Source: a virus
Taxonomy: Duplodnaviria > Heunggongvirae > Uroviricota > Caudoviricetes
DNA: 9,647 nt
IMG/VR virus record: IMGVR_UViG_2534681656_000013
Strand: one strand, 5' to 3'
The notes under the pieces were generated by a model that saw only the letters and a program-made list of their open reading frames with translations, made no database searches and was not told where the DNA came from. Each line of letters begins with the position of its first letter. Position 1 is the stretch's first letter. The position numbers and the translations under genes are program-made. Below are positions 1 to 7,089 of the stretch, piece after piece.

Positions 1-39
1 TTAATCATGTCCTTAAATTAATGCAACCTTCGTGCGCAG

Positions 40-58
40 TGCTTTCCCCGCCTCGCCC
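40..58 (-). other. cos: cos site: 19-nt P2/P4-type cohesive-end sequence
   Basis: Plus strand 40-58 is gtgctttccccgcctcgcc; its reverse complement is GGCGAGGCGGGGAAAGCAC, which I recall as the P2/P4 cohesive end. It sits where P4 has cos, just beyond the end of psu. Recalled from memory, not searched. Confidence 0.6.
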
Positions 59-158
59 GCCCGCTTTGCAGGGCGGTTTTAATGCAGTTGCACAGACACG
101 CTCAGACCGCGCCGGGAATGGCGCGGTTTGCAGAAAATGAGGCAGGGAAACGCATGCA

Positions 159-191
159 AAGCCATGCACCTTATCGATGCATGGCTTTTTT
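159..191. terminator. Perfect 10-bp inverted repeat (aagccatgca / tgcatggctt, 9-nt loop) followed by a 6-T run; candidate terminator between cos and psu
   Basis: Arms at 159-168 and 178-187 are exact reverse complements, and T186-T191 follows on the plus strand. The T-run is on the plus strand, so it is better oriented for plus-strand transcripts than for psu. Confidence 0.4.
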
Positions 192-221
192 CAGTAAAAT
201 CGGACGGATTTTCGGGGAGTT

Positions 222-794
222 TTACACAGACTGATGTGATGCCAGTTGCGCACTTTTACGCGAAAAAATCATGTTCTGCGCAGGGGTGAATTTTTCACGG
301 CTGTCATCCACCGAAGCCGCGTCAGGCCTGAATCCGATGGTCGTTAAAATGTCGCTATCCTGTGCGGAATAATTAATTTTTTCCCCCTTCGCAAGCCAGG
401 ACAGAAGGGCTTCACGCAGGGCATCTGTGGCACGCTGTATGGCACAGTTTCGGGCAATGTCCGTCAGTTCACTGTAGCCCATCAACTCCGGTGCCAGTGC
501 GGCCGCCATTACTGTGCCGTGCTGCTGCATAAAATCATTCAGCCGGTCGCGGATGCTGATGTGCTGAACGGCTTCATGCGAACGAATATAACGACCGGCG
601 GCCTGATTCACCTGCCATTTTCTGACTTCGATAATATTGCGTAATTCGTCCAGGCGACTGACGTTTCTGCCTTCTCCTGACAGAAGCCGCAGGTATTCCT
701 GTTCGGCCGCTGCCAGCTCATTTTTGCGTTGCAGCCATGCTGCTTTGTTATTCTGACAGGTGTCAAAGGCCTGCTGTAAGGCTGTGCTTTCCAT
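222..794 (-). CDS. psu: Psu-like protein (polarity suppression / capsid decoration), 190 aa
   Basis: 190-aa ORF, last in a minus-strand sid-delta-psu arrangement. Length matches P4 Psu as I recall it, and it lies next to cos as in P4. Confidence 0.8.
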   Translation of the reverse strand: MESTALQQAFDTCQNNKAAWLQRKNELAAAEQEYLRLLSGEGRNVSRLDELRNIIEVRKWQVNQAAGRYIRSHEAVQHISIRDRLNDFMQQHGTVMAAALAPELMGYSELTDIARNCAIQRATDALREALLSWLAKGEKINYSAQDSDILTTIGFRPDAASVDDSREKFTPAQNMIFSRKSAQLASHQSV

Positions 795-867
795 CGTTAT
801 CTCTTTCTCATCATGCTGAAGAATAAAAATACGGTGTGCGGCGACGGCCGGTGTTAACCGGCAGCCC

Positions 868-1368
868 TCATTCCAGACGCAGCGAATATGATTGTGTTTT
901 TAAGCGTACTGGCGGCAGTTCCTGTTTTTCATACAGGCGTTCTGCCAGTTCGTCCGGCGTGACCGGGCGGACAATGAAACGGTTGATGGTCTGAAGCGTT
1001 TTAAACACCAGACCACAGCCCGGATCCGTGCACACATAAAAACGCTCGGTGACTTCCTGAGACAGACGCCGCGATGTTCTTGACAGTGCAAGGCCTTTAC
1101 ATCTCCGACAACAATATCCGGTAACAAGCATTCTTTTCGGGCGTTTCATACTGCCGGAGGCTGACGTCAGTGAATCGCGGTATCTCTGTTTGCCTGAAAT
1201 GTATTCCATTCCTGAATCTTTACTGTCAGAGAAAAAGCTTTCACTCGCTTCAAATGTCGCAGAGCAATAAATATTCCGGCACTGTGCAATCATTATCTTG
1301 GTGCCATCGTCCATGAAATGTGCGCGACGGGTGTGAGCAACATGTCCACACGACGGGCAGTAAATCAT
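868..1368 (-). CDS. delta: Delta-like late-gene transcriptional activator (duplicated Ogr-type zinc finger), 166 aa
   Basis: Two Cys-rich modules (CPSCGH...C..C and CCRRCKG...CTDPGC) typical of a tandem Ogr-like protein. Length 166 aa matches P4 Delta. Its ATG (1366-1368) overlaps the sid stop (1365-1367) as ATGA. Confidence 0.8.
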   Translation of the reverse strand: MIYCPSCGHVAHTRRAHFMDDGTKIMIAQCRNIYCSATFEASESFFSDSKDSGMEYISGKQRYRDSLTSASGSMKRPKRMLVTGYCCRRCKGLALSRTSRRLSQEVTERFYVCTDPGCGLVFKTLQTINRFIVRPVTPDELAERLYEKQELPPVRLKTQSYSLRLE

Positions 1369-2099
1369 GACAGCAGCCCTCTGGCCTTAAGCTCTGCTCC
1401 CTGCTGGTCTATTTTGTCCTGCCACACCTTGCGCTGTGCCGGTGTGCCTGCCACCTCATAATCCATGTGCGGAAGTGTTGCCGCTGACAGTCCGGTCAGC
1501 CGGAGAACCGGCTCGCCGGTGAGGCTGATTTGCATCTGTTTAATTTTCTGTTCCAGCGATGATTTCACCTGCTGCATGACAGCCTTTTCCGGTGCGACGT
1601 AGCCCTGATGGCCGGTGGTGTTGGCGAGCGGATTTTCCTGTACCAGGATACTCAGATGCATTGCCCGGACAAGCGCCTCACAGGTTTCATTCAGGGCGTG
1701 TTCCAGCTCATGCTCTGCATACAGACTCAGAAGGTGATGATGTGCCTTCCGGTAGGCGGTGGCCGTACTGTCACACGCCCCTTTCAGGCGTTCACGTTCG
1801 AAATTCAGCACCACGGCCAGATTGTCATATTCCTGTACCAGCTCCCTGCGTGCCACGCGCTCAATGTGGCGCTGTTTCAGCTCGTCGCTCAGGACACCAC
1901 CGGCTGCACGAAAGGCCGTGCGCCAGTCGTCAGCGTCGTTTCCGTCGGCCTGCGCCAGCGCATTTTTTTCCTGCTCTGCCCGTTCAATGGCCGTGACGGT
2001 CTCATCCATCAGGCGGGCGTTCTCAAGATGGGCGGCTCTGGCCTTTTCCAGTTGTGCCAGCGCGGGTTGCAGATATTCAGGGATGGTGTTGTCAGACAT
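1365..2099 (-). CDS. sid: Sid-like capsid size-determination (external scaffold) protein, 244 aa from the second in-frame ATG
   Basis: The ORF track gives 250 aa from the ATG at 2115-2117. The second ATG (2097-2099) is preceded by GAGGAG at about 7 nt and yields 244 aa, the length I recall for P4 Sid. Coiled-coil-like, Ala/Glu/Leu-rich sequence; first gene of the minus-strand late operon. Confidence 0.8.
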   Translation of the reverse strand: MSDNTIPEYLQPALAQLEKARAAHLENARLMDETVTAIERAEQEKNALAQADGNDADDWRTAFRAAGGVLSDELKQRHIERVARRELVQEYDNLAVVLNFERERLKGACDSTATAYRKAHHHLLSLYAEHELEHALNETCEALVRAMHLSILVQENPLANTTGHQGYVAPEKAVMQQVKSSLEQKIKQMQISLTGEPVLRLTGLSAATLPHMDYEVAGTPAQRKVWQDKIDQQGAELKARGLLS

Positions 2100-2171
2100 T
2101 TTCCGGCTCCTCGTCACTTCAGGTTAAGAAAATTGTGACGTACACCGGACAACAACACGACGCATTGCAGA

Positions 2172-2189
2172 TGTGCCAGCCCTGACACA
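2172..2189 (-). promoter_or_regulatory. TGT-N12-ACA dyad, candidate Delta/Ogr activator site of a Psid-like late promoter
   Basis: tgt(2172-2174)-N12-aca(2187-2189), centred about 82 bp upstream of the sid ATG at 2099. This fits P2/P4 late promoters with a dyad near -55 and a short leader. A second dyad at 2134-2151 is too close to the ATG to be the same type of site. Chance occurrence of this motif is not negligible. Confidence 0.4.
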
Positions 2190-2261
2190 GGAGACTCATC
2201 CTCAGACCGGCAAGCCAGGAAAAGGTCGCAGGAAAAACCGGCTTACTGTTTGTTTTTTTAT

Positions 2262-2375
2262 ATTTTACTGTTCACCTCTGTTCACCTTAAGAAAAAAGAT
2301 AAGTAATACAGTAAGTTAAAGGTTGAACAATAGCAGTAATGACTGTTCACCGTCTGTTCACCACTGTTCACCCGT
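2262..2375 (+). repeat. ori: ori-like iteron cluster: five perfect direct TGTTCACC octamers with helical-turn spacing, followed by an AT-rich tract
   Basis: TGTTCACC at 2269-2276, 2279-2286, 2344-2351, 2355-2362 and 2365-2372, plus a degenerate copy (gttgaaca, about 2322-2329). AT-rich tract at about 2380-2470. The same octamer recurs in the crr-like region about 4.8 kb away, consistent with alpha-binding type I iterons of P4. Confidence 0.7.
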
Positions 2376-2530
2376 TGATGGACTTTTTGTGCTGTTTATT
2401 ACTTTTTATTTTTATTAATTCACTGAAATAAATAAGAAAAAACAATTTGTATTTCACTATAAAAAATTCCAGGTCCTTCAGAACCCTTTGAGACCCTTCC
2501 AGTCCGGATGGATAAAAAACACACAGCCAT

Positions 2531-2548
2531 TGTAAGGTTGCCGGAACA
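2531..2548 (+). promoter_or_regulatory. TGT-N12-ACA dyad, candidate activator site of a PLL-like late promoter upstream of vis
   Basis: tgt(2531-2533)-N12-aca(2546-2548), centred about 110 bp upstream of the vis ATG (2651). Inference by analogy with P4 PLL, which lies upstream of vis and is late-activated. Confidence 0.3.
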
Positions 2549-2650
2549 AATTCCCCCTGTTGCGTCTGCTGAAAATATTCACAAAATAAAGCGCTACCCG
2601 AAGCCGGACGGACTTATCCGGTGCTGTATGGACATTAACGAGGTATCCCG

Positions 2651-2917
2651 ATGCAAGCTGTTTTTTCTTCCCCGTCTCCCGCCCCTGTTACGCCACTGAT
2701 GCCGCTGCCGGACATCACGCAGGAGCGTTTTTTACGTCTGCCGGAAGTGATGCACCTGTGCGGCCTGTCACGCTCGACCATCTATGAACTCATCCGTAAG
2801 GGGGAATTTCCGCCGCAGGTGAGTCTTGGCGGTAAAAATGTGGCCTGGCTGCACTCTGAAGTCACCGCATGGATGGCCGGGCGCATTGCCGGACGCAAAC
2901 GGGGGTACGACGCATGA
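2651..2917 (+). CDS. vis: Vis / AlpA-family small DNA-binding regulator (excisionase-like HTH), 88 aa
   Basis: 88-aa ORF with an AlpA-type motif ([29 protein letters not shown]) and GAGG about 7 nt upstream of the ATG. Size and position match P4 vis (orf88) as recalled. Confidence 0.8.
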
Positions 2918-3513
2918 TGATGCCCGCTCTGCAAAAACTCCCTTTTTCTGGCTTGCCTTTTTCCGGCATTTGCGGATATAGTTTTTCCGCTGCCGCAAAA
3001 TCGGCAGCCGGGCGTGAGAACCCGAGCAATTCACAGGCGACATATGACGCGCCACGCGTCTTTTTTTGTGTCGCAATCAATGCCACAGAGCGCCAGATTA
3101 TGGTGTGGTGTGTGGTCAGTCGTGCAGATGGCATTCCGTGCATCCTGCCCGCGTCCGCTCATTATGCCGCAGAGTCAATGGTAGCTCAGGCGGGGCAGCC
3201 TCCGGGCTGGCCGGTATCCTGTGAAGCCGGTATTCTCACCCCCGTCTGGGCTATCGCCATCGAGCGTGAGAACTCCGGCGATAGCGTTATTTGCTATTCA
3301 CAGGAGGCTGCCATCATGGCTACAACCCTTACCCCTTCACACCCTGAATTTGTCTTTGTGTTTGCGGCTGTCCGTCGCGCAGACCGTCATCCCCGTATCT
3401 GCATGCTTCGCACCGTCGCCGGTGATGAACGCAGCGCCCGCCGTTCCCTTGTCCGTGACTATGTGCTCTCCCTTGCTGCCCGTCTGCCGGTGGTGGAGGT
3501 GTCCCGTGCGTAA
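2914..3513 (+). CDS. kil: kil-like long open frame (199 codons) spanning the immunity leader; coding status uncertain
   Basis: Three consecutive in-frame ATGs at 2914-2922; the first overlaps the vis stop (ATGA). Reading to the TAA at 3511-3513 gives 199 aa. The sequence is low-complexity and the frame also contains promoter-, terminator- and repeat-like elements, as expected of the P4 immunity leader where nested kil/eta translation modulates termination. The ORF-track start at 2869 lies inside vis and is rejected. Confidence 0.45.
2953..2982 (+). promoter_or_regulatory. Candidate sigma70-type promoter (TTGCCT, 17-18 bp spacer, ATATAG/TATAGT), possible PLE-like early promoter
   Basis: -35-like hexamer at 2953-2958 and -10-like hexamer at 2976-2982, about 400 bp downstream of the putative PLL dyad, matching the PLL-PLE spacing I recall for P4. 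Sequence-only prediction. Confidence 0.25.
3046..3067 (+). terminator. GC hairpin (gacgcg-cca-cgcgtc) followed by 7 T: intrinsic terminator, candidate immunity-type premature terminator
   Basis: Perfect 6-bp GC stem (3046-3051 / 3055-3060) with a 3-nt loop, then T3061-T3067. It lies about 60 nt downstream of the candidate promoter and inside the kil-like frame. Confidence 0.4.
3316..3513 (+). CDS. eta: Nested in-frame internal start within the kil-like frame (65 aa), eta-like
   Basis: ATG at 3316-3318 preceded by AGGAGG (3302-3307) at 8-nt spacing, in the same frame and sharing the stop with the 199-codon frame. P4 is reported to have eta nested in frame within kil; assignment is by analogy. 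Confidence 0.4.
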
Positions 3514-3793
3514 TAAAAAAGCCCCTCAGACCGTCTCAGCACGTCATGACGCCCGTGAACACCTCAGCATTGAGGCTTACCATAAGCTCAACCGCGCCAG
3601 CGCCGTATCCCGGTTTGTTGGGGGTGATTTGATTCACCGTGAACTCTCCGGCCTGCATCAGCTCTACATTCCGCATATTTTCAGCTACCTGAATGAAGAT
3701 ATTGATTTTGTGCTGAATGAGCTGAAAGCCAAAGGCCTGTGCCGCGATTTTCTCGCCCAGCAGAAAGACCGGGGAGACAGGACGCATGTTTGA
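3506..3793 (+). CDS. epsilon: Epsilon-like protein (helper-prophage derepression), 95 aa from a GTG start
   Basis: GTG at 3506-3508 preceded by GGAGG (3495-3499). The start overlaps the end of the kil/eta frame, and the stop (3791-3793) overlaps the orf151 start (3786). Position immediately upstream of orf151 matches P4 order; the 95-aa length fits my uncertain recollection of P4 epsilon. Confidence 0.6.
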
Positions 3794-4241
3794 TTTTCCC
3801 CAGCCCGGTGAGATTTACCGTTCTGCCGGTTTTCCCGATGTGGCCGTGGTCGGCATTCTGGAAGACGGTATTCCGTGGGAAATGCCGTACCGCTGCCCGG
3901 ACATTGTCTGGAACCCGTACCGCCGTAAATTCAGTATCCTTGTGCGTATCCTCGCTGACGGGCGCACCACAGACATCCCGCTGGGGCGTTTTCTGCGGGA
4001 ATTTACCTGTGACCGTCCTGACCTGTTTAAACGCAGCCCCGTAAACCGGCATGCGGTACTGAAAGAAATGGCCGGAGACCCGGAATTACAGAAATGGCGG
4101 GAGAAATATCTGGATATTTACCCGCAGGACACTGTTCCGGCCAGCCGGGCGGCACCGGTGGCGCGGGAATGGCGGGAAATTCCCCGCACGGAGCCTGACC
4201 CAGAAATCACCCCGGATAACAGTTACCGCAATTATCTGTAA
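3786..4241 (+). CDS. Hypothetical protein, P4 orf151-like (151 aa)
   Basis: 151-aa ORF, start overlapping the epsilon stop, in the position of P4 orf151 between epsilon and alpha. Function unknown. Confidence 0.7.
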   Translation: MFDFPQPGEIYRSAGFPDVAVVGILEDGIPWEMPYRCPDIVWNPYRRKFSILVRILADGRTTDIPLGRFLREFTCDRPDLFKRSPVNRHAVLKEMAGDPELQKWREKYLDIYPQDTVPASRAAPVAREWREIPRTEPDPEITPDNSYRNYL

Positions 4242-4376
4242 TTAAAAAACGACACCCGAAAAATTAAATGTGCGTATTCGCGCAGGGATACGCACGTCTT
4301 CAGGAGACGCAGATATGCCTTATCAGTTAATGCAACCGGCACGGAATGCAGTCATCTGTCACAGGGAGGAAAGCAA

Positions 4377-4697
4377 ATGAAACCCCCCTTACCGCCCGTC
4401 TTACGCGCAGCCCTTTACCGTCGTGCTGTCGCCTGTGCCTGGCTGACCGTGTGCGAACGTCAGCATCGCTACCCGCATCTCACCCTTGAGTCACTGGAGG
4501 CGGCCATCGCCGCTGAGCTGGAGGGCTTTTATCTGCGCCAGCACGGTGAGGAAAAAGGGCGTCAGATAGCCTGTGCCCTGCTGGAAGATTTAATGGAATC
4601 CGGCCCCCTGAAGGCCGCGCCGTCGCTGTCCTTTCTCGGGCTGGTTGTGATGGATGAACTCTGTGCCCGTCACATAAAAGCGCCGGTACTGCACTGA
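4377..4697 (+). CDS. Hypothetical protein, P4 orf106-like (106 aa)
   Basis: 106-aa ORF with GGGAGG upstream, ending 14 bp before the alpha start. Size and position match P4 orf106. Confidence 0.7.
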
Positions 4698-4711
4698 AGG
4701 AGAACAACACC

Positions 4712-7045
4712 ATGAAAATGAACGTAACCGCCACCGTCAGCCATGCGCTCGGCCACTGGCCGCGTATTCTCCCGGCGCTGGGGATTCAGGTGCTGAAAAA
4801 CCGTCATCAGCCCTGTCCGGTCTGTGGCGGGAGTGACCGCTTCCGTTTTGATGACAGGGAGGGGCGCGGCACCTGGTACTGCAATCAGTGTGGTGCCGGT
4901 GACGGCCTGAAACTGGTTGAAAAGGTGTTTGGTGTTTCCCCGTCCGACGCGGCCGCAAAGGTGGCTGCCGTGACCGGCAGCCTGCCCCCGGCTGACCCGG
5001 CAGTGACGGCCGCCGCCGGCGCTGAAACAGACGCTGCCCGGAAGAACGCCGCCGCACTGGCACAAACCCTGATGGCAAAAACCCGTCCCGGAACCGGTAA
5101 CGCCTACCTGACCCGCAAGGGCTTTCCCGGCCGGGAATGCCGGATGCTGACCGGCACACACAGAGCCGGTGGCGTGAGCTGGTGCGCCGGTGACCTTGTG
5201 GTGCCACTGTATGACGACAGCGGCGAACTGGTTAACCTTCAGTTAATCAGTGCTGACGGCCGTAAGCGCACCCTGAAAGGCGGACAGGTCAGGGGCACCT
5301 GTCACACCCTTGAAGGACAGAATCAGGCCGGAAAACGTCTGTGGATAGCGGAGGGATACGCGACCGCACTTACCGTGCATCACCTGACCGGTGAAACGGT
5401 GATGGTGGCGCTTTCTTCCGTGAACCTCCTTTCTCTGGCCAGCCTTGCCCGGCAGAAGCATCCGGCCTGTCAGATTGTCCTTGCTGCTGACCGTGACCTC
5501 AGCGGTGACGGCCAGAAAAAAGCCGCCGCAGCCGCAGATGCGTGTGAAGGTGTTGTTGCCCTGCCGCCGGTCTTCGGTGACTGGAATGATGCCTTCACGC
5601 AGTACGGCGGGGGGGCCACCCGTAAGGCCATTTATGATGCCATCCGGCCACCGGCTGAAAGCCCGTTCGACACCATGAGCGAAGCGGAGTTTTCCGCCAT
5701 GAGTACCAGCGAAAAGGCCATGCGTATCTATGAGCATTACGGCGAGGCGCTCGCGGTCGATGCCAACGGCCAGCTTCTGTCCCGCTATGAAAATGGTGTC
5801 TGGAAGGTGCTGCCGCCACAGGACTTTGCCCGGGATGTGGCCGGGCTGTTTCAGCGTCTGCGCGCGCCGTTCTCCTCCGGGAAGGTGGCCTCCGTGGTGG
5901 ACACCCTGAAGCTGATTATTCCGCAGCAGGAAGCCCCCTCCCGCCGCCTGATTGGCTTTCGTAACGGCGTGCTCGACACGCAGAACGGCACGTTCCACCC
6001 GCACAGTCCGTCACACTGGATGCGCACCCTGTGCGATGTGGATTTCACCCCGCCGGTGGACGGTGAAACGCTGGAGACCCACGCCCCCGCGTTCTGGCGC
6101 TGGCTTGACCGTGCCGCCGGTGGCCGTGCGGAAAAACGCGACGTGATTCTGGCCGCACTGTTTATGGTGCTGGCAAACCGCTACGACTGGCAGCTCTTTC
6201 TGGAGGTGACCGGTCCCGGCGGCAGCGGCAAAAGTATCATGGCCGAAATAGCCACCCTGCTGGCCGGTGAGGATAACGCCACGTCGGCCACCATTGAGAC
6301 GCTGGAATCCCCGCGTGAACGTGCCGCGTTAACTGGCTTCTCACTGATACGCCTGCCGGACCAGGAAAAATGGAGCGGCGACGGAGCCGGACTCAAGGCC
6401 ATCACCGGCGGCGATGCGGTGTCCGTTGACCCGAAATACCGGGATGCGTACTCCACGCACATCCCGGCGGTGATTCTGGCCGTGAACAATAACCCGATGC
6501 GCTTCACCGACCGCAGCGGCGGCGTGTCACGCCGGCGGGTGATTATTCACTTCCCGGAACAGATAGCCCCGCAGGAGCGCGACCCGCAGCTTAAGGACAA
6601 AATCACCCGCGAGCTGGCGGTCATCGTGCGTCACCTGATGCAGAAGTTCAGCGACCCGATGCTCGCCCGGTCACTGCTTCAGTCCCAGCAGAACTCAGAC
6701 GAGGCACTGAACATCAAACGGGATGCCGACCCGACGTTTGATTTTATCGGCTATCTGGAAACCCTGCCGCAGACCAGCGGCATGTATATGGGGAACGCCA
6801 GTATCATCCCGCGTAATTACCGTAAATACCTCTATCACGCCTATCTGGCCTACATGGAGGCAAACGGCTACCGGAATGTACTCAGTCTGAAAATGTTCGG
6901 GCTGGGGCTGCCGGTGATGCTGAAGGAATACGGACTGAATTACGAGAAGCGCCATACCAAACAGGGGATACAGACCAACCTGACGCTGAAAGAGGAAAGC
7001 TACGGCGACTGGCTGCCAAAATGTGACGACCCTGCAATAGCCTGA
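4712..7045 (+). CDS. alpha: Alpha-type bifunctional DNA primase-helicase (zinc-binding primase, TOPRIM, superfamily-3 helicase), 777 aa
   Basis: N-terminal CPVCGG...YCNQCG zinc motif, a Walker A box (GPGGSGKS, about 6211-6234), AAGGAG RBS, and a length of 777 aa equal to P4 alpha as recalled. Flanked by TGTTCACC iteron clusters on both sides. Confidence 0.93.
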   Translation: MKMNVTATVSHALGHWPRILPALGIQVLKNRHQPCPVCGGSDRFRFDDREGRGTWYCNQCGAGDGLKLVEKVFGVSPSDAAAKVAAVTGSLPPADPAVTAAAGAETDAARKNAAALAQTLMAKTRPGTGNAYLTRKGFPGRECRMLTGTHRAGGVSWCAGDLVVPLYDDSGELVNLQLISADGRKRTLKGGQVRGTCHTLEGQNQAGKRLWIAEGYATALTVHHLTGETVMVALSSVNLLSLASLARQKHPACQIVLAADRDLSGDGQKKAAAAADACEGVVALPPVFGDWNDAFTQYGGGATRKAIYDAIRPPAESPFDTMSEAEFSAMSTSEKAMRIYEHYGEALAVDANGQLLSRYENGVWKVLPPQDFARDVAGLFQRLRAPFSSGKVASVVDTLKLIIPQQEAPSRRLIGFRNGVLDTQNGTFHPHSPSHWMRTLCDVDFTPPVDGETLETHAPAFWRWLDRAAGGRAEKRDVILAALFMVLANRYDWQLFLEVTGPGGSGKSIMAEIATLLAGEDNATSATIETLESPRERAALTGFSLIRLPDQEKWSGDGAGLKAITGGDAVSVDPKYRDAYSTHIPAVILAVNNNPMRFTDRSGGVSRRRVIIHFPEQIAPQERDPQLKDKITRELAVIVRHLMQKFSDPMLARSLLQSQQNSDEALNIKRDADPTFDFIGYLETLPQTSGMYMGNASIIPRNYRKYLYHAYLAYMEANGYRNVLSLKMFGLGLPVMLKEYGLNYEKRHTKQGIQTNLTLKEESYGDWLPKCDDPAIA

Positions 7046-7052
7046 CCCACCT

Positions 7053-7078
7053 GACCGGCATCTGCCGGTCTTTTTTTT
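7053..7078 (+). terminator. Rho-independent terminator of the alpha operon (gaccggc-atct-gccggtc followed by 8 T)
   Basis: 7-bp GC-rich stem (7053-7059 / 7064-7070) with a 4-nt loop, then T7071-T7078, immediately after the alpha stop (7043-7045). Confidence 0.75.
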
Positions 7079-7089
7079 ATCCCGACATC

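What the first reader, a model, noticed from the sequence alone, without database searches (positions are those of the whole stretch)
1..221. cos lies 40 bp from the window edge, so the variable psu-to-int cargo region is off-window
In P4-like satellites, accessory and anti-phage cargo concentrates between psu/cos and int. Here cos (40-58) and psu end at the left boundary, so any such cargo lies immediately to the left of position 1 and could not be assessed. Within the window I found no candidate defence genes.
Basis: partly seen in the sequence, partly recalled or inferred. Interest (0 to 1): 0.45.

Follow-up and report, generated by a model that had tools for sequence, protein, structure and literature searches.

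The report
P4 satellite cos site; cargo off-window
The window starts 38 bases outside the DNA-packaging (cos) site of an ordinary P4-like phage satellite, and near-identical genomes show that the off-window "cargo" is a small, already catalogued two-gene candidate anti-phage cassette followed by an integrase and the selC tRNA gene.

Summary
The 19-nt P2/P4 cohesive-end sequence is exact at window 39-57, one base left of the stated 40-58. The psu gene (222-794, minus strand) ends just inside it. The window is 98.1% identical to P4 from cos to crr.

The variable region starts at base 33 and runs leftward, so bases 1-33 already tag the cargo type. Draft E. coli contigs match the whole window with only 1-2 mismatches. 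They show what lies to the left:
- a 1.74-kb two-gene cassette (361 aa, then a 173-aa four-helix membrane protein);
- a selC-type integrase of 395 aa;
- tRNA-Sec carrying attL;
- host genes yicJ and yicI.

All 30 complete E. coli genomes that carry bases 1-45 carry this same cassette.

The cassette is already catalogued. It is PADLOC candidate PDC-M18 and system #4, "RexA + 4TM", of Rousset et al. 2022. That study cloned it and listed it among the tested systems that were not validated on an eight-phage panel.

The parts
1..33 (-). Edge of the variable hotspot. This is the cargo-specific sequence upstream of cargo gene A. The gene's likely ATG lies 76 bp left of window base 1.
   Evidence: Satellites with other cargo (P4, O157/O145 strains, L009) stop aligning at base 33/34. 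Bases 1-45 occur in exactly 30 of 5426 complete E. coli genomes. Those same 30 carry the 1741-bp cassette at 99.9-100% identity.
34..88 (.). cos packaging block shared with helper phage P2.
   Evidence: Three-way alignment of the window, P4 and the circularised P2 junction. Near-continuous identity to P2 covers only this 55-bp stretch.
39..57 (-). 19-nt cohesive-end sequence GGCGAGGCGGGGAAAGCAC.
   Evidence: Exact single match with 0 expected by chance. It is identical to the annotated cosL/cosR of P2 and to the first 19 bases of the P4 record.
57..76 (+). GC-rich hairpin CCGCCC-N8-GGGCGG followed by TTTT, inside the conserved cos block.
   Evidence: Found by the terminator-like scan. Its fold energy is not unusual against shuffles (z = -0.7), so it may be a protein-recognition element rather than a terminator.
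158..188 (-). Strong 13-bp hairpin just downstream of psu. It is terminator-like in both directions.
   Evidence: RNA fold of -21.5 kcal/mol, z = -4.4, with 0 of 200 shuffles folding as well. Conserved in P4.
222..794 (-). psu, the polarity suppression and capsid decoration protein (190 aa).
   Evidence: Pfam Psu 2.1e-87. Lies under the P4 psu annotation.
868..1368 (-). delta, the Ogr/Delta zinc-finger activator (166 aa).
   Evidence: Pfam Ogr_Delta 6.8e-22. P4 annotation.
1365..2099 (-). sid, the capsid size determination protein (244 aa).
   Evidence: Match to P4 sid. Gene calls in the related loci agree.
2651..2917 (+). orf88 / AlpA-Vis-type regulator.
   Evidence: Pfam Phage_AlpA 7.3e-21.
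2976..3261 (+). P4 immunity RNA region: c4-a1b1 targets, isrK and the C4 (CI) antisense RNA.
   Evidence: Rfam gathering-score hits RF03163, RF01394 and RF01695.
4712..7045 (+). alpha primase-helicase (777 aa).
   Evidence: P4 annotation. Pfam families are listed.
7524..7545 (+). attR, a 22-bp direct repeat of the 3' end of tRNA-Sec (GACTCCTGTGATCTTCCGCCAA).
   Evidence: This is the longest exact repeat between the tRNA-Sec region (L007 2179-2200) and the region downstream of alpha. Counted from attL, the element is 10,656 bp long.
7843..9034 (+). Frameshifted integrase of a second selC island. It is not part of the satellite.
   Evidence: 99.9% DNA identity to the selC island integrase region of ETEC H10407. 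In the window it is split into 278-aa and 158-aa ORFs.

Best explanation
Bases 1-221 are the right-end cos region of an intact P4-like satellite prophage about 10.7 kb long, integrated at selC (tRNA-Sec).

The P2 terminase recognition and cutting site is the 55-bp block at 34-88, with the 19-nt cohesive end at 39-57. A strong hairpin at 158-188 follows psu.

The variable hotspot of the P4 family begins at base 33 and runs off the window. In contigs that match the window almost base for base, it holds one 1.74-kb cassette on the same strand as sid-delta-psu:
- gene A, 361 aa, soluble;
- gene B, 173 aa, four transmembrane helices.
Next come a selC-type tyrosine integrase (395 aa) and attL within tRNA-Sec.

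The cassette is PADLOC candidate PDC-M18, which is system #4, 'RexA + 4TM', of Rousset et al. 2022.

The most likely mechanism is inferred, not shown, and I put it at about 0.35-0.4. It would be a Rex-type abortive-infection pair. The cytoplasmic A protein, with a RexA/RdgC-like fold, would sense an infection-specific DNA or protein-DNA intermediate. It would then activate the membrane protein B, which would depolarise the cell and abort phage growth. That would protect the satellite's host population.

Shown here: the cos site, the hotspot boundary, the identity and order of the off-window genes in near-identical contigs, and the integration site. Inferred: that the source genome has the same flank, and that the cassette is defensive and Rex-like.
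For: cos and P4 identity:
- Exact cos match.
- 98.1% identity to P4.
- The cos block shared with P2 is window 34-88.

Off-window content:
- L007/L024 and L026 differ from all 9647 window bases at one position. L027 differs at two. L029 differs at one over the 9435 bases it covers.
- All of them carry genes A and B, the integrase and tRNA-Sec to the left.
- Bases 1-45 and the 1741-bp cassette co-occur in the same 30 of 30 complete genomes.
- attL and attR are a 22-bp repeat.

Hotspot behaviour:
- Satellites with a 100% identical alpha protein, or a 96-98% identical core, carry other cargo at the same place. Examples are helicase + DUF2290, dCTP deaminase and gop-beta-cII.

Cassette identity:
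- PDC-M18A 1.9e-34 and PDC-M18B 3.3e-16.
- The exact protein sequences appear in Rousset Table S1B as system #4, with 169 loci.
- The Domainator paper maps its cluster 4 to PDC-M18 and Rousset #4.

Rex-like reading:
- AlphaFold model with pLDDT 78 and pTM 0.75.
- Gene order matches lambda rexA-rexB: a soluble protein, then a small membrane protein with several hydrophobic segments (four TM by Rousset's Phobius analysis).
- The A-B pair stays adjacent in unrelated genomic contexts in E. coli and Vibrio cholerae. Adjacent locus tags in Yersinia, Moellerella and Aeromonas show the same.
Against: The true source contig was not retrieved. Every relative has G where the window has T at 2646, so the left flank is inferred from near-clones.

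The cassette was cloned with its native promoter and appears only among the tested, non-validated systems of Rousset et al. (Table S2B).

No sequence method links A or B to RexA or RexB:
- Pfam gave nothing, even at E = 10.
- PADLOC has RexA and RexB models that lambda's proteins hit at 9e-110 and 8.6e-61, but A and B do not hit them.
- PHROGs places A and B in different families from RexA and RexB.
- hhalign probabilities were 0.08-0.14% for A1 vs lambda RexA, A2 vs lambda RexB and A1 vs a RexA-family profile.
- Foldseek against the PDB did not recover RexA.

In L007 a one-base deletion in a T8 run changes the last 9 residues of B.
Confidence: 0.85

Rival explanations
1. The A/B cassette is not an anti-phage system. 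It could serve the satellite itself, for example by modulating the P4 lysis-lysogeny or immunity switch, as lambda RexA does independently of RexB. Or it could be a lysogenic-conversion membrane function.
For: The cassette appears only among the tested, non-validated systems in its one published test. [quoted passage not shown] The cassette sits on the same strand as sid-delta-psu, directly downstream, and no consensus promoter was detected between cos and gene A. That would fit co-expression with the late operon.
Against: The cassette occupies the exact slot where validated defence systems sit in sibling satellites. It also travels as a self-contained pair in non-satellite contexts in Vibrio and E. 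coli, so it does not depend on P4 functions. An eight-phage panel is small. Later work found that most unannotated P4 hotspot loci protect when tested on 28 phages (PMC13586616).
Confidence: 0.25
2. The source genome's hotspot differs from the near-identical contigs. A recent cargo swap, a deletion or an empty hotspot would make the inferred flank wrong.
For: Cargo turnover between almost identical satellites is real. L009 has a 100% identical alpha protein but different cargo. The window carries a private SNP at 2646, so no retrieved contig is the source itself.
Against: Bases 1-33 are cargo-specific. They are linked to this cassette in 30 of 30 complete genomes and in every draft contig retrieved that carries those bases. 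The contigs sharing the window's rare right-hand features (the frameshifted island integrase and the IS2 junction) all carry the cassette.
Confidence: 0.04
3. The cassette is a decaying remnant. Gene B is frameshifted, so the hotspot is functionally empty in this lineage.
For: L007/L024 have T7 instead of T8 near the 3' end of gene B. The last 9 residues are replaced by a 26-residue tail that overlaps the end of int.
Against: L026, L027 and L029 share the same window sequence and the same frameshifted neighbouring integrase, and they have the intact T8 run. The change lies after the last predicted transmembrane segment. It sits in a homopolymer of a 2013-era draft assembly, a typical sequencing error. 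Gene A is intact in all loci.
Confidence: 0.06

Closest known systems
Satellite phage P4 (X51522 / NC_001609): the cos-psu end and the psu-int hotspot
   Same: 98.1% DNA identity from cos through psu, delta, sid, the immunity region, alpha and crr. The 19-nt cos is identical and the same 55-bp block is shared with P2. Cargo sits in the same position, directly beside cos.
   Different: The cargo is the A/B cassette rather than gop-beta-cII. The integrase is only 38% identical to P4 Int. The element sits in selC tRNA-Sec rather than P4's own site; leuX as the P4 site is from my own knowledge and was not tested here. The sequence beyond crr, where P4 has its attP region, does not match P4.
P4 hotspot system #4, 'RexA + 4TM' (pFR81, E. 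coli IAI75), of Rousset et al. 2022; PADLOC PDC-M18
   Same: The protein sequences of A and B appear verbatim in Tables S1B and S2B. Both PADLOC PDC-M18A and PDC-M18B models match. The location between cos and int is the same.
   Different: Nothing material. L007 alone has a one-base homopolymer difference at the 3' end of gene B.
Lambda RexA-RexB exclusion system
   Different: No detectable sequence similarity by Pfam, PADLOC, PHROGs or hhalign. Foldseek does not recover RexA. A is 82 residues longer than RexA (361 vs 279 aa). No exclusion phenotype has been reported.

Membership tests
P4-like phage satellite | Core genes psu, delta, sid, alpA/orf88, epsilon and alpha in P4 order | tested here: met
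   98.1% DNA identity to P4 across all of them. Pfam hits to Psu, Ogr_Delta, Phage_AlpA, Derepression and DUF5375. C4 and isrK RNAs found.
P4-like phage satellite | P2-type cos site next to psu | tested here: met
   Exact 19-mer at 39-57. The 55-bp block at 34-88 is shared with P2.
P4-like phage satellite | Tyrosine integrase and integration into a tRNA gene with flanking direct repeats | tested here: met
   Seen off-window in near-identical contigs. The integrase is 395 aa and tRNA-Sec is present. The attL/attR repeat is 22 bp.
P4 psu-int anti-phage hotspot (Rousset et al. 2022) | Variable gene content between cos/psu and int among satellites with near-identical cores | tested here: met
   Four different cargo types sit at the same boundary, base 33/34.
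P4 psu-int anti-phage hotspot (Rousset et al. 2022) | The cargo confers phage resistance | not testable with these tools
   The published assay lists this cassette in Table S2B, among tested systems that were not validated on the eight-phage panel.
PADLOC candidate system PDC-M18 | Adjacent genes matching the PDC-M18A and PDC-M18B models | tested here: met
   1.9e-34 and 3.3e-16. The genes are 12 bp apart on the same strand.
Lambda RexAB | Sequence membership of RexA (PF15969 / PADLOC RexA) and of RexB | tested here: not met
   No Pfam or PADLOC RexA/RexB hit, although lambda's proteins hit those PADLOC models strongly. PHROG families differ. hhalign probability is at most 0.14%.
Lambda RexAB | RexA/RdgC-like fold of the soluble partner | tested here: inconclusive
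Lambda RexAB | Small multi-pass membrane partner encoded directly downstream | tested here: met
   B is 173 aa. A Kyte-Doolittle scan finds strongly hydrophobic segments, compatible with the four TM helices reported by Rousset et al., and a comparable pattern in the 144-aa RexB. Four TM helices are noted in Table S1B.
Lambda RexAB | Exclusion of superinfecting phage through membrane depolarisation | not testable with these tools
   No phenotype has been reported for this cassette.

The most novel reading that the evidence does not exclude
The A/B cassette is the fourth most common P4 hotspot cargo in E. coli (169 loci). It could be a working Rex-type abortive-infection pair so diverged from lambda RexAB that only its fold betrays the link. 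Its trigger would simply be absent from the eight phages tested. If so, the Rex principle would extend to a widespread gammaproteobacterial family and would give RexA-like sensors a second, tractable model.
Probability: 0.35. Interest if true: 0.4.

Novelty: already known. Interest (0 to 1): 0.15.

Why it matters
It matters little beyond bookkeeping. The finding correctly notes that the informative part of a P4-like satellite lies just outside the window. Checking shows that part to be a catalogued candidate system.

The useful by-products are:
- The first 33 bases of such a window identify the cargo type.
- The cargo here is the still-unvalidated 'RexA + 4TM' / PDC-M18 pair.
- Its RexA link rests on fold similarity only.

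Anyone wishing to validate PDC-M18 now has exact coordinates and intact alleles.

Tried and rejected
- **Locating the source.** No complete E. coli genome covers more than 92% of the window. An exact-protein look-up with alpha, and then with the frameshifted 278-aa integrase fragment, found draft contigs 1-2 mismatches from the window. None has the T at 2646, so the true source was not recovered.
- **Sequence homology of A to RexA and of B to RexB.** I tried Pfam at E up to 10, NCBIfam, PHROGs and PADLOC's RexA/RexB models. I also tried hhalign against single lambda sequences and against a 23-sequence RexA profile. All were negative. Both profiles are shallow (Neff about 2.6-3.3), so this is a weak negative.
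- **A profile of A against PDB sequences.** Only chance-level hits.
- **Foldseek against the PDB.** No match at E <= 0.001 and RexA absent from the list.
- **A promoter for the cassette between cos and gene A.** No consensus match.
- **The small ORFs in 1-221** (5-169 minus strand, 82-234 plus strand, 128-289 plus strand). I treated them as non-coding. The stretch is conserved with P4 as DNA and is annotated as intergenic there.
- **The 386-aa form of gene A,** whose ATG is the base just left of the window. I rejected it as the real start. All homologues begin at the MSEGLV position, and residues 1-22 of the model have pLDDT below 50.

Full report
**1. The observation**

The canonical P2/P4 cohesive-end sequence GGCGAGGCGGGGAAAGCAC occurs once in the window. 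It is exact, on the minus strand, at 39-57. None of 200 dinucleotide-preserving shuffles contained it.

The psu gene lies at 222-794 on the minus strand (Pfam Psu 2.1e-87). Bases 1-221 are therefore the stretch between the psu stop codon and the window edge.

Window 58-7393 aligns to P4 (X51522) positions 11624-4291 at 98.1% identity. That span covers psu, delta, sid, the origin, the immunity region, epsilon, orf151, orf106, alpha and crr. Rfam finds the P4 immunity RNAs C4, c4-a1b1 and isrK at 2976-3261. The element is an ordinary, apparently intact P4-like satellite.

**2. Anatomy of bases 1-221**

I aligned the window with P4 and with the circularised P2 junction. Near-continuous identity to P2 is confined to window 34-88. 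That block comprises:
- 31 nt on the psu side, which contains the GC hairpin CCGCCC-N8-GGGCGG at 57-76;
- the 19-nt cohesive end;
- 5 nt (TGCGC) on the far side.

From 89 to 221 the window matches P4 but not P2. This stretch includes a strong 13-bp hairpin at 158-188, directly after psu (-21.5 kcal/mol, z = -4.4).

Left of base 34 the picture changes. P4 (gop side), an O157:H7 satellite and satellite L009 all diverge completely from the window and from each other. Megablast hits from O157 and O145 genomes likewise begin at base 34. Bases 1-33 are therefore already the variable region. This agrees with Rousset et al. 2022, who describe the hotspot as directly adjacent to cos (PMC9122126).

**3. 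What lies to the left**

No complete E. coli genome covers the whole window; the best reaches 92%. Looking up the exact alpha protein in public assemblies returned L007 (GCA_000355515.2, contig AQEX01000028.1). It matches all 9647 window bases in register, with a single mismatch: window 2646 is T and L007 has G.

A second look-up used the window's unusual 278-aa integrase fragment. It returned three further independent assemblies carrying the satellite (L026, L027, L029), with 1-2 mismatches to the window.

In these contigs the sequence left of window base 1 reads, going leftward:
- gene A, minus strand, 361 aa from the ATG 76 bp left of the window;
- gene B, minus strand, 173 aa, 12 bp downstream of A;
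- a tyrosine integrase of 395 aa on the plus strand;
- tRNA-Sec;
- the core genes yicJ and yicI.

A 22-bp direct repeat, GACTCCTGTGATCTTCCGCCAA, marks attL at the 3' end of tRNA-Sec and attR at window 7524-7545. The element is therefore 10,656 bp long.

The integrase is 38% identical to P4 Int and 70% identical to the selC-island integrase of ETEC H10407.

**4. How safe is the inference for the unseen flank?**

Window bases 1-45 occur in exactly 30 of 5426 complete E. coli genomes. The 1741-bp cassette occurs in exactly the same 30, at 99.9-100% identity and directly adjacent. Every draft contig that contains bases 1-45 also carries the cassette.

The risk is a very recent cargo swap. Such swaps do happen. 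L009 encodes a 100% identical alpha protein but carries a UvrD-type helicase plus DUF2290 in the same slot. An O157:H7 relative carries an anti-phage dCTP deaminase there. Because the first 33 bases are themselves cargo-specific, I put this risk at a few percent.

**5. Identity of the cargo**

Pfam and NCBIfam give nothing for A, and nothing meaningful for B. PHROGs places both in families of unknown function.

PADLOC matches A to PDC-M18A (1.9e-34) and B to PDC-M18B (3.3e-16). PDC-M18 is a candidate system, not a validated one.

The literature settles the rest:
- The exact protein sequences are the representatives of system #4 in Table S1B of Rousset et al. That system has 169 loci and is the fourth most common P4 hotspot cargo in E. 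coli.
- The cassette was cloned as pFR81, 'RexA + 4TM', from E. coli IAI75. It is listed in Table S2B, the 'additional tested systems' that were not among those validated on the eight-phage panel.
- The Domainator paper independently equates its hotspot cluster 4 with Rousset #4 and PDC-M18 (PMC11754643).

The cargo is therefore already catalogued.

**6. Testing the Rex-like idea**

Sequence methods do not reproduce any link to RexA or RexB:
- PADLOC's own RexA and RexB models are hit by lambda's proteins at 9e-110 and 8.6e-61, but not by A or B.
- hhalign of a 35-sequence A profile against lambda RexA gives a probability of 0.14%. Against a 23-sequence RexA profile it gives 0.09%.
- hhalign of the B profile against RexB gives 0.08%.
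- A profile search of PDB sequences gives only noise.

Architecture agrees with lambda. A soluble protein is followed directly by a small protein with several strongly hydrophobic segments; B is 173 aa and RexB is 144 aa.

The A-B pair also behaves as a portable module:
- It sits between tauE and carAB in Vibrio cholerae.
- It sits beside resolvase and HTH genes in other E. coli.
- It has adjacent locus tags in Yersinia, Moellerella and Aeromonas.

I conclude that 'works like RexAB' is the best available hypothesis, at about 0.35-0.4. Membership of the RexA/RexB sequence families was tested and not met.

**7. Mechanism, with status of each step**

Shown:
- The cos site is present and intact.
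- The hotspot boundary is at base 33/34.
- The order cos, A, B, int, tRNA-Sec holds in near-clones.
- A and B lie on the same strand as sid-delta-psu.

Inferred from established P2/P4 biology:
- The P2 terminase cuts at 39-57 after recognising the shared 34-88 block. Whatever lies in the hotspot is then packaged and transferred with the satellite.

Inferred from fold and architecture only:
- A senses an infection-specific nucleic-acid or nucleoprotein intermediate and activates the membrane protein B.
- B collapses membrane potential and aborts infection.

Against the last step stands the absence of this cassette from the validated set in its one published test. That panel had only eight phages. 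Later work with 28 phages found that most unannotated P4 hotspot loci protect (PMC13586616).

**8.

That criterion is unsound, because gop-beta-cII was itself validated as a defence system against lambda and P1. In any case the flank does not contain those genes.

**9. Verdict**

The off-window content is a known, catalogued candidate system of modest size. Nothing here is new, so interest is low.

One open point remains. A very common P4 cargo has no demonstrated function, and its link to RexA rests on fold similarity alone.

Noticed in passing
window 2646: The window has T where all 15 related loci have G. The base lies 5 nt upstream of the orf88/alpA ATG (2651), in the spacer after the GAGG Shine-Dalgarno sequence. 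It is a private SNP of the source and is why no retrieved contig is an exact match.
   Followed up: partly
window 7843-9034: A second tyrosine integrase starts 298 bp right of attR. It is 99.9% identical in DNA to the selC-island integrase region of ETEC H10407 but is split by a frameshift into 278-aa and 158-aa ORFs. Two elements therefore sit in tandem at selC. Downstream in L007 are IS66, a sulfatase-family gene and dynamin-like GTPase genes.
   Followed up: partly
window ~9400-9647: The end of an IS2 copy, with 96-97% identity to IS2 / InsD annotations in many phage and E. coli records. It runs off the right edge of the window.
   Followed up: no
L007 ~3623 (also L024): A one-base deletion (T8 to T7) near the 3' end of cargo gene B replaces its last 9 residues with a 26-residue tail. 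L026, L027 and L029 share the same window sequence and have the intact run. A homopolymer sequencing error is likely.
   Followed up: yes
L004, position equivalent to window 40: This contig stands for 12 further similar places. It carries a T-to-A substitution inside the 19-nt cohesive-end sequence itself. Whether such a satellite can still be packaged is unknown.
   Followed up: no
L009 2555-5306: A satellite with a 100% identical alpha protein carries a UvrD-type helicase plus DUF2290 in the hotspot, on the opposite strand. Rousset et al. validated a helicase + DUF2290 system against T7. This is a clear example of cargo swapping on an unchanged core.
   Followed up: partly
L007 5287-5289 (base just left of window position 1): Gene callers often start cargo gene A at an upstream ATG, giving a 386-aa form that ends exactly at the window edge. 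Homologue N-termini and the low-confidence first 22 residues of the model indicate that the 361-aa form is the real one.
   Followed up: yes
L016-L021: The A-B cassette occurs outside satellites. In Vibrio cholerae it lies between tauE and carAB. In other E. coli it lies beside resolvase, HTH and AAA_13 genes. This suggests it moves as an independent two-gene module.
   Followed up: partly
window 2651-2917: The orf88/AlpA protein gives a weak PADLOC hit to mad1 (2e-06). This is most simply explained by a shared helix-turn-helix domain, not by a defence function.
   Followed up: no
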